Assembly (NCBI RefSeq): GCF_009914755.1 | Contig: NC_060931.1 | Reading direction: 5' to 3' (one strand) | Source of the DNA: the human T2T-CHM13v2.0 reference genome, Homo sapiens | Length of the DNA: 64,000 nucleotides | Shown: piece by piece, positions 12,675-15,203 of the stretch | Layout of the letters: each line of letters opens with the position of its first letter | How positions within the stretch are numbered: the stretch's first letter is position 1 | Program-made: the position numbers and the translations under genes | The notes under the pieces: model-generated | What the model was told of the DNA's origin: nothing | The model's database searches: none | Seen by the model: only the letters and a program-made list of their open reading frames with translations

Positions 12675-12868
12675 TAATAATGAGATTTTCAGAGGCTGAA
12701 AGCTAGAAACACAACTTAGGGTTGGCAACAGGCAGACACTTAATCAAGTTGTAAAATGCATTCTAATGCAAAAGGAGAAGAATTGGTGGACAGCTGACAG
12801 GGATGCTGTGCCGTGGCTGGGCTCTGGAAGGCCCTGCTGGGCACCTTTAACAGGTTGCAGCCAAGAAA
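12675..12868 (+). repeat. Arm A of a 194-bp inverted repeat of unclassified sequence
   Basis: Ungapped reverse-complement match to 15010-15203, 171/194 identical (hand count). Confidence 0.92.
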
Positions 12869-13373
12869 CAAGAGATGGACCACATAAAGCAGCTTTCTTC
12901 TTCAGCAAACGTGGCTGGTCAGTGGGTTGCAATGTAATTCCCCGAGATTCTTCCCCTGCTCTGGATGTGGAAGGGTATAAAGGGTTATGAAATAGTGTCC
13001 CTCTAGCCTGAGCTCATGGGCCAAGCCTGATGATATGGAATGTAGTAGATATAAATGCAAACTTCTTCACTTTAGTTCTAAAAACAATTGCATAAATATC
13101 AAACAGGGAACTCAGCTTTGACTCATTGGTTTTGACTGGCTCAACAAAGGGTTTTTATTCTGATGTTTAGTTGTACAGAGACCTGCCTTATTGTCCGTGG
13201 GCCAGACAAGTTCAGATTTAAATGCTATATTTAAAAGGAACACGGCAGCCTACATATTGTTTAGAGGACATTAATAAATGGTATAGGAAATTGAACTGGC
13301 AAGTGACTAGTTTCTTTAATCTTTAATATTCCAGGATTTCAAGTTTGTGAAAATATAGCTTAAAGGGATGTGG

Positions 13374-13696
13374 GGCCTGGCATAGTGGCTCATACCTGTA
13401 ATCTCAGTGTTCTGGGGGGCTAAGGTGGGAAGATCACTTGAGCCCAGGAGTTCAAGACCAGCCTGGGCAACATAGCAAGACCTCATCGCTACAAAAATTT
13501 TTTTAAAATTAGCTAGGCCTGGGGGTGTGCACCTGTATCCCAGCTACTCAGGAGGCTGAAGCAGGAGGATCACTTGACCCCAGGGGTTGGAGGCTGCAGT
13601 GAGTTATGATCATGCCACTGCACCCCAGCCTGGGCAACAGAGCAAGATCCTGTCTGTAAAAAAAAATAAATAAAATAAATAGAAATAAAAAATAAA
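13374..13696 (+). mobile_element. AluJ
   Basis: Dimer plus A-rich tail. Confidence 0.88.
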
Positions 13697-13960
13697 GGGG
13701 CTTGGGGTTGTTGAATTCCTACTATATTCTAAGTACTATGGTATATGATGCTGTGGCTAAGTTCTCCAGTTTGATCATTCTGGTCATTGTTCCCATTTCA
13801 CAGATGAGGAAACCAGGGCTTTGAAAGGCTAGGCAGTTTTCCTACTCACCCAGCTAATGAACAGCATACCTTCTTTCTGTTCAATTCAATTCCACAACAT
13901 CAAGCATGTCACATTCTGTGATTCTAAGATTCTTTGCTTTAATGGTCCTATAAATGAATC

Positions 13961-14260
13961 TTTTTTTTTTTTTTTCAAGACGGAGTATCGCTCTGTCACC
14001 CAGGCTGGAGTGCAGTGGCGTTATCTCATCTCACAGCAACCTCTGCCTCCCGGGTTCAAGTAATTCTCCTGCCTCAGCCTCCCAAGTAGCTGGGATTACA
14101 GGCACACACCACCATGCCCAGCTAAATTTTTTGATTTTTTGGTAGAGATGGGGTTTCGCCACATTGGCCAAAGTGGTCTTGAACTCCTGACCTCAGGTGA
14201 TCTACCCACCTTAGCCACCCAAAGTGCTGAGATTACAGGTGTGAGCCACCATGCCCAGCC
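13961..14260 (-). mobile_element. AluS
   Basis: Antisense dimer. Confidence 0.9.
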
Positions 14261-14429
14261 CCTATGAATGATTCTAACGTTGCAGTGTTCAGAGACTGTG
14301 CAGAATGGCTGTGCAGGAATAGAAAGGTTGCAAAGGGGGACAGAAAGTATGAGGTGGTAGAAGGAACAGAACAATTACAAAAGTGGTCATTCATTGGGTC
14401 CCCTGCCCCCCAAATAAAACATTCCTGTT

Positions 14430-14747
14430 TATTTCTTTCTTTCTTTTCTCTCTCTTTTTTTTTTTTTTGAGACAGTCTTGTTCTGTCACCCAGGCTGGAG
14501 TACAGTGACACGATTTTGACTCACTGCAACTTCTGCCTCCCAGGTTGCAGTGATTCTCTTGCCTCAGCCTCCTGAGTAGCTGGAATTACTGGCATGCACC
14601 ACCACTTCCAGCTAATTTTTGTGTTTTTAGTAGAGACAGGGTTTCACCATGTTGGCCAGGCTGCTCTCAAACTCCTGACCTCAGGCTATCCACCCACCTG
14701 GGCCTCCCAAAGTGCTGGGATTACAGGCGTGAGCCACTGCACCTGGC
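14430..14747 (-). mobile_element. AluS
   Basis: Antisense dimer. Confidence 0.9.
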
Positions 14748-15009
14748 TATTTATCTGCATTTCTGCCAGGCAGCCATGTGACCTGAGAAGAGCTCCCTTG
14801 TGAGACAGGATTTTTCTCATTTCCTGGCTCCTAATCTAAGAGAAATGTCTAAATTAGTTGGCTGGCTCTGCCTGAAGTGGGTGGAGGGGGGACGAAAAGG
14901 TAGAATCAATCACTCCATTTGAAACTGCATCTGCTGAAAAGATGTCATGAAGAGGCGGGTAATTCTGTTTCCTCAAGCACTTCTCCTAGGAACCACTAGC
15001 CCGTTTTTT

Positions 15010-15203
15010 TTTCTTGGCTGCAACCTGTTAAAGATGCCCAGCAGGGCCTTCCAGAGCCCGGCCAGGGCACTGAGTCCCTGCCAGCTGTCTGTGGATTCTT
15101 CTCCTTTTACATTAGAATGCGTTTTACAACTTGATTAAGTGCCTGCCTGTTGCCAACCCTAGGCTGAGTTTCCAGGTTGCAGCCTCTGAAAGTCTCCTTA
15201 TTA
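15010..15203 (-). repeat. Arm B of the 194-bp inverted repeat
   Basis: Reverse complement of 12675-12868. Confidence 0.92.

What the first reader, a model, noticed from the sequence alone, without database searches (positions are those of the whole stretch)
12675..15203. Ungapped 194-bp inverted repeat of non-TE-looking sequence enclosing 2.1 kb
Seen: 12675-12868 is the reverse complement of 15010-15203, with 23 mismatches and no gaps (~88%). There are two near-perfect blocks (12718-12783: 3 mismatches in 66; 12818-12868: 2 in 51). I do not recognise it as Alu, L1, LTR or MIR. Both arms share motif-like words: GGGTTGGCAAC (RFX half-site-like), CTTAATC (K50 homeodomain-like), GCATTCTA (TEAD-like) and CAGCTG (E-box). 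Three Alus (~0.9 kb) lie in the spacer. Inference, alternatives: a duplicated enhancer pair kept similar by selection or gene conversion; breakpoints of a recurrent polymorphic inversion; a long dsRNA stem if transcribed; or long TIRs of an unclassified DNA element. Wobble-compatible mismatches show no clear strand bias (9 vs 6).
Basis: partly seen in the sequence, partly recalled or inferred. Interest (0 to 1): 0.72.

Follow-up and report, generated by a model that had tools for sequence, protein, structure and literature searches.

The report
Old local copy-paste inverted duplication
The two mirror-image stretches are one short piece of human DNA and a flipped copy of it lying about 2 kb away, likely made by a single replication or repair slip tens of millions of years ago; this is a well-known, ordinary kind of mutation, though the likely original piece may be a weakly conserved regulatory element in a second copy of the region elsewhere on chromosome 7.

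Summary
The inverted repeat is real (194 bp, 23 mismatches, no gaps). The arm has four copies in T2T-CHM13: this pair and a paralogous pair at chr7:69.44 Mb, inside an old segmental duplication (9.3% diverged). The paralog keeps the original layout. There the arm is 259 bp once an Alu is skipped, and the left arm alone is flanked by a 12-bp direct repeat (11 of 12 match; 2 of 1,500 random pairs score as high). So the left arm is likely an inverted copy of the right arm, inserted about 1.2-1.8 kb away, with no poly(A), L1 cut site or transposon target duplication. Here an Alu-bounded deletion removed its outer 51 bp. The four arms group left-with-left and right-with-right, and 0 of 32 variable columns show within-locus conversion. 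The spacer has the same orientation in both loci. The near-perfect blocks and shared motifs are chance or trivial. This fits the described class of short inverted duplications (Sudmant 2015). One lead remains: the paralog's right arm changed slowly (3-4 changes in 245 bp, 11-15 expected), a hint of constraint at 7q, not here. Low interest.

The parts
12675..12882 (+). Left arm remnant: the likely inserted inverted copy; outer 51 bp missing in this locus
   Evidence: outer piece found at only 3 places, none at the window's left arm
12879..12890 (+). Surviving, degraded downstream copy of the 12-bp direct repeat that flanks the left arm; overlaps the arm end by 4 bases
   Evidence: paralog GTCACAGAAAGT / GTCACATAAAGT at L005 3447 and 4024; window junction printed in the same call
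12349..12681 (+). Alu with TAA tail at the site where an Alu split the left arm (target duplication of about 17 bp visible in the paralog)
12222..12348 (+). Orphan Alu left monomer: left edge of a deletion of about 1 kb between two Alus that removed the outer arm piece and the upstream direct repeat
   Evidence: exact junction not resolved
12883..14996 (.). Spacer, unique sequence plus three Alus (about 13375-13690 +, 13957-14262 -, 14430-14747 -); same orientation in both loci; third Alu absent from the paralog
14997..15254 (-). Right arm, full length: the likely template; low divergence from its paralog (12 differences in 242 sites)
15016..15184 (.). Short inverted repeat inside the arm (12 bp at 15016-15027 and 15173-15184); role unknown
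   Evidence: 13 of 2,000 shuffles reach 11 bp

Best explanation
The left arm is likely a flipped copy of the 259-bp right-arm sequence, inserted 1.2-1.8 kb upstream in one replication or repair template switch that also duplicated 12 bp of the target site. Since the duplication the arms have diverged independently; the pair in this window is likely a neutral relic. Age about 40 million years is inferred from 9.3% divergence with a recalled calibration.
For: Direct repeat 11/12 at both junctions of the left arm only; score reached by 2 of 1,500 random position pairs; best scores 2 and 4 at the right arm and the whole element vs 9. Four copies only. Site patterns in 194 columns: left|right 6, locus-shared 0, private 10/6/5/3, other 2; tree left+left, right+right, bootstrap 97. 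Left-arm divergence between loci 18/194 equals background 1216/13048. No untemplated A-run at either junction; the A-run at 15005-15014 is specific to the window's right arm. [quoted passage not shown]
Against: No pre-insertion (empty) allele was seen: no outgroup genome is available. The direction rests on one 12-bp repeat preserved whole in one locus. The topology test does not formally reject grouping by locus (p-AU 0.058, bootstrap proportion 0.013). The right arm is less diverged than 96-99% of background windows, which pure neutrality explains poorly. Template switch versus staggered-break repair cannot be told apart from sequence.
Confidence: 0.8

Rival explanations
1. Same origin, but the template is a constrained regulatory element that still works at the chr7:69.44 Mb locus; the three other copies drift. 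(Compatible with the best explanation; it changes the value of the finding, not the mechanism.)
For: Paralog right arm: 3-4 derived changes in 245 bp vs 11.4 (equal rates) or 14.7 (Alu-based rate, 109 vs 60 changes in 2,224 sites) expected, Poisson P=0.011 to 0.0003 before correcting for four arms. Non-CpG differences 7/230, as low as 1.0% of sliding windows. It keeps 5 CpGs, while only 3 of 129 background CpGs are shared by both loci.
Against: On all sites 3.6% of sliding windows are as low and 2 of 53 non-overlapping windows are lower. Polarising was by hand from four sequences. 8 of 111 paralog windows hold 5 or more CpGs. Motif columns show no extra retention. No chromatin or cross-species data here.
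Confidence: 0.25
2. Duplicated enhancer pair kept alike by gene conversion or selection on both arms.
For: Ungapped 88% identity; shared motif-like words.
Against: 0 locus-shared columns; six left|right differences survive in both loci across 12736-12818; left arms diverge at the background rate; the left arm tolerated an Alu and a deletion.
Confidence: 0.04
3. The arms are the scar of a staggered-break inversion of the spacer, or drive recurrent inversion.
For: Arm-spacer-arm layout is what such an inversion leaves (established knowledge); an inversion older than the segmental duplication is not visible in this comparison.
Against: That model does not predict a direct repeat on both sides of one arm. 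Spacer orientation is equal in both loci. Recurrent inversions mostly have flanking repeats of 10 kbp or more (28 of 40; bioRxiv 2021.12.20.472354, passages).
Confidence: 0.07
4. Long terminal inverted repeats of an unclassified DNA transposon, or each arm a small MITE.
For: 259-bp inverted ends; an 11-12 bp inverted repeat inside the arm (13 of 2,000 shuffles); one 25-mer pattern gave 5 isolated hits at 3 mismatches on other chromosomes with 0 control hits, not followed up.
Against: No target duplication around the whole element (best 4 bp); all four copies trace to one locus; spacer is ordinary two-copy DNA.
Confidence: 0.03
5. L1-mediated retrocopy of a local transcript (class 1 templated insertion), or a functional double-stranded RNA stem.
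For: 12-bp target duplication lies in the L1 range (PMC5110952 requires at least 5 bp); arms can pair at about -320 kcal/mol.
Against: No poly(A), no 5'-TTTT/A-3' site in either orientation; retrocopies do not preferentially land 2 kb from the source (established knowledge). Neighbouring Alu pairs pair more strongly (-390 to -465); no transcript is annotated over the window pair (hub table).
Confidence: 0.04

Closest known systems
Short local inverted duplications ('Inverted Dup', Sudmant et al. 2015, PMC4617611; passages read)
   Same: Stretch under 1 kbp, copy within 5 kbp, inverted, no sign of retrotransposition.
   Different: Those are polymorphic in living humans; this one predates a 9.3%-diverged segmental duplication, so it is old and likely fixed; its junctions survive only in the paralog.
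Four-point template-switch events (Walker et al. 2021, PMC7954356; passages read)
   Same: Reverse-complement copy from nearby; junctions fit the order 4-1-3-2, return point before departure point.
   Different: That work covers tens to hundreds of bases; here the jump is 1.2-1.8 kb and the copy 259 bp.
Templated sequence insertion polymorphisms, classes 1 and 2 (PMC5110952; passages read)
   Same: Templated insert; target duplication as in class 1.
   Different: Source is local, not distant; no poly(A) or L1 site (class 1 fails); a target duplication is present (class 2 fails).

Membership tests
Short local inverted duplication | Duplicated stretch under 1 kbp | tested here: met
   259 bp
Short local inverted duplication | Copy within 5 kbp, inverted | tested here: met
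   spacer 1,831 bp in the paralog, about 2.1 kb here
Short local inverted duplication | No retrotransposition hallmarks | tested here: met
   no poly(A), no L1 site at the junctions
Short local inverted duplication | Empty allele lacking the copy | not testable with these tools
   no outgroup or population genomes; inferred from the flanking direct repeat
Class 1 templated insertion (L1-mediated) | Target duplication of at least 5 bp | tested here: met
   12 bp, 11 matching
Class 1 templated insertion (L1-mediated) | Untemplated poly(A) and TTTT/A target | tested here: not met
   junctions
DNA transposon with long TIRs | Target duplication around the whole element | tested here: not met
   best direct repeat 4 bp
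DNA transposon with long TIRs | Dispersed independent copies | tested here: not met
   4 copies, one ancestral locus; searches miss very diverged copies
DNA transposon with long TIRs | Match to a Dfam family | not testable with these tools
   no repeat library; arms are not among the hub's listed longest masked stretches, apart from a 14-bp overlap with 11912-12688
Concertedly evolving palindrome | Arms more alike within than between loci | tested here: not met
   0 locus-shared columns; tree by arm, bootstrap 97, alternative p-AU 0.058
Recurrent NAHR inversion | Long flanking repeats and both orientations seen | tested here: inconclusive
   arms 0.2 kb; same orientation in both loci; population haplotypes not available
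Conserved enhancer | Reduced substitution rate | tested here: inconclusive
   paralog right arm slow; left arms at background
Conserved enhancer | Open chromatin, factor binding, cross-species conservation | not testable with these tools
   no such data here

The most novel reading that the evidence does not exclude
The template of the duplication is an unrecognised constrained enhancer at chr7:69,444,358-69,444,616 (T2T), on the upstream side of the AUTS2-family gene, and its three descendants (one local inverted copy, two copies moved to 7p11.2) form a dated natural experiment on how an enhancer decays once duplicated.
Probability: 0.22. Interest if true: 0.4.

Novelty: new member of a known kind. 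Interest (0 to 1): 0.17.

Why it matters
Mostly it does not: it is an old, likely fixed example of a described mutation class. It is a clean worked case, because a paralog preserves the junctions and lets conversion be tested without other species. If the slow right arm at 7q is a real regulatory element, the four copies would give a ready reporter comparison.

Tried and rejected
Rfam scan of 11000-17000: only Alu-derived matches near threshold, nothing on the arms. Stop-to-stop frames of the paralog 3400-6300: 45 frames of 40 aa or more, none recognisable by eye, not searched further. Near-perfect blocks: chance. Motif retention: no signal. Wobble bias: none. Literature: '7p11.2 + 7q11.22 + segmental duplication' 9 papers (listing; passages of PMC7698152 concern other breakpoints); 'XPOTP2 / LOC154937 / CCNJP1' 0 papers; 'AUTS2 upstream gene desert enhancer 7q11.22' 1 unrelated paper (listing); three mechanism or catalogue searches (listings) and one on long inverted repeats (listing) showed no title on this locus. 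These searches cover open-access text only; supplementary SV or cCRE tables were not read and could list the locus.

Full report
Observation. Window 12675-12868 and 15010-15203 are reverse complements with 23 mismatches and no gaps. The match is far beyond chance (E=2.5e-68) and has no other copy in the window. Inverted pairs as such are common here: 1,409 pairs of 40 bp or more, the 25 longest of Alu size. What is special is only that this one is not Alu. The near-perfect blocks are not special: permuting 23 mismatches gives a 66-bp stretch with at most 3 in 21% and a 51-bp stretch with at most 2 in 39% of 20,000 trials. No Rfam family fits the arms.

Copy number. A genome search with the right arm returned 4 matches from 4 candidates: this pair and a pair at chr7:69,442,319-69,444,565. 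A 30-mer pattern with 3 mismatches gave the same 4, control 0. A 25-mer gave the 4 plus 5 isolated hits at 3 mismatches on chromosomes 1, 9, 11 and 19, control 0; these were not followed up. A profile over 274 kb of held sequence gave the 4 arms and one weak hit at E=0.099. Very diverged copies could be missed. The second pair lies in a collinear, same-strand segmental duplication, chr7:56,402,193-56,484,733 against 69,413,578-69,464,868, with 1,216 differences in 13,048 non-Alu sites, 9.3% (18 hand-picked collinear blocks, sites near gaps dropped). With a recalled calibration (human-macaque about 6.5%, human-marmoset about 10-11%) that is roughly 35-40 million years. Which locus is the parent was not determined. 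The spacer has the same orientation in both.

The paralog keeps the original anatomy. An Alu with a target duplication of about 17 bp splits its left arm; skipping it, the arms align without gaps over 259 bp. The outer piece exists at three places only, and not at the window's left arm. In the window an orphan Alu left monomer (12222-12348) abuts a full Alu, and about 1 kb of the paralog's sequence is missing. The right half of the window Alu shares a 1-bp deletion with the paralog's arm Alu; its left half differs, so the exact junction is unresolved.

Which arm is the copy. The paralog's left arm is flanked by GTCACAGAAAGT and GTCACATAAAGT, overlapping the arm by 1 and 4 bases. This scored 9; 2 of 1,500 random position pairs reached 9; the right arm scored 2 and the whole element 4. 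A degraded downstream copy survives at window 12879-12890. A direct repeat on both sides of one arm is what an insertion leaves, and is not predicted by an inversion or by a transposon with long ends. There is no untemplated A-run and no TTTT/A site in either orientation, so L1-mediated insertion as defined in PMC5110952 (passages) fails. The distance at the time was 1.2-1.8 kb, depending on whether the two shared spacer Alus were present (spacer 1,831 bp). In the four-point notation the junctions read 4-1-3-2; events with point 4 before point 1 are reported in PMC7954356 (passages). The step from junctions to a template switch is inference; repair of a staggered break would leave the same trace.

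No concerted evolution. Of 194 columns, 32 vary: 6 split left from right in both loci, 0 split locus from locus, 24 are private (10, 6, 5, 3), 2 are other. Four of the six are CpG decays in the left arms and could partly be parallel. The tree joins left with left and right with right at bootstrap 97; grouping by locus has bootstrap proportion 0.013 but p-AU 0.058, so it is not formally rejected. The left arms differ at 18 of 194 sites, the background rate. Shared motifs are a trivial result of copying; in the unbiased test, paralog changes fall in 1 of 32 motif columns and 8 of 139 others, P=1.0. As RNA the arms would pair at about -320 kcal/mol, less than the three Alu pairs tested in or beside the spacer (-390 to -465), and the hub table lists no transcript here.

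The one result against pure neutrality. The right arms differ at 12 of 242 sites against a mean of 22; 3.6% of sliding windows are as low and 2 of 53 non-overlapping windows are lower. Without CpG sites it is 7 of 230, matched by 1.0% of sliding windows. Using the left arms as outgroup, read by hand, the paralog's right arm has 3-4 changes in 245 bp and the window's 8-9. Expected are 11.4 at equal rates or 14.7 and 8.1 at rates from shared Alus (109 vs 60 changes in 2,224 sites; columns under 85% majority, gap-near sites and the first 320 bp of five blocks dropped). So the window's arm looks neutral and the paralog's slow (P=0.011-0.0003 uncorrected, without overdispersion). It also keeps 5 CpGs, but 8 of 111 local windows do too. 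I put real constraint at about one in four. The paralog lies about 2.6 Mb before the AUTS2-family coding matches at chr7:72.00-72.01 Mb; that this is the gene-poor stretch upstream of AUTS2 is recalled, not checked.

Comparison and verdict. [quoted passage not shown] This locus meets the three features I could test; the empty allele could not be tested. Recurrent inversions mostly need repeats of 10 kbp or more (28 of 40; bioRxiv 2021.12.20.472354, passages). My searches found no paper on this locus; they cover open text only. Verdict: real, old, ordinary in kind, with one modest lead outside the window. Interest 0.17.

Noticed in passing
G000:C7:56402193-56484733 vs G000:C7:69413578-69464868: Old same-strand segmental duplication (9.3% diverged) covering the whole window; shared Alus changed faster in the 69.4-Mb copy (109 vs 60, P=0.0002).
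   Followed up: partly
window 26372-30569: XPOTP2 is absent from the paralog (alignment skips 26353 to 30598), so it likely inserted after the duplication; 33660-61364, which holds the PPP2R5E-type pseudogene, also has no collinear match.
   Followed up: no
window 12681-12716: 7 of the left arm's 10 private changes cluster in the 42 bp next to the Alu tail (P=0.001); one matches the variant in the paralog's upstream Alu target copy.
   Followed up: no
window 11893-12222: An Alu (11908-12208) inserted directly in front of an older Alu, with a target duplication of about 16-18 bp; absent from the paralog.
   Followed up: partly
window 14430-14747: Third spacer Alu is specific to this copy; the paralog shows the empty site.
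   Followed up: yes
window 13790-13860 and 15370-15610: Look by eye like a MIR fragment and an old L1 3' end (names recalled, no library).
   Followed up: no
L007/L012-L013 and window 63470-63994: A stretch near window 63470-63994 matches the paralog in both orientations (66-75%), suggesting an older internal repeat or palindrome near the duplication end.
   Followed up: no
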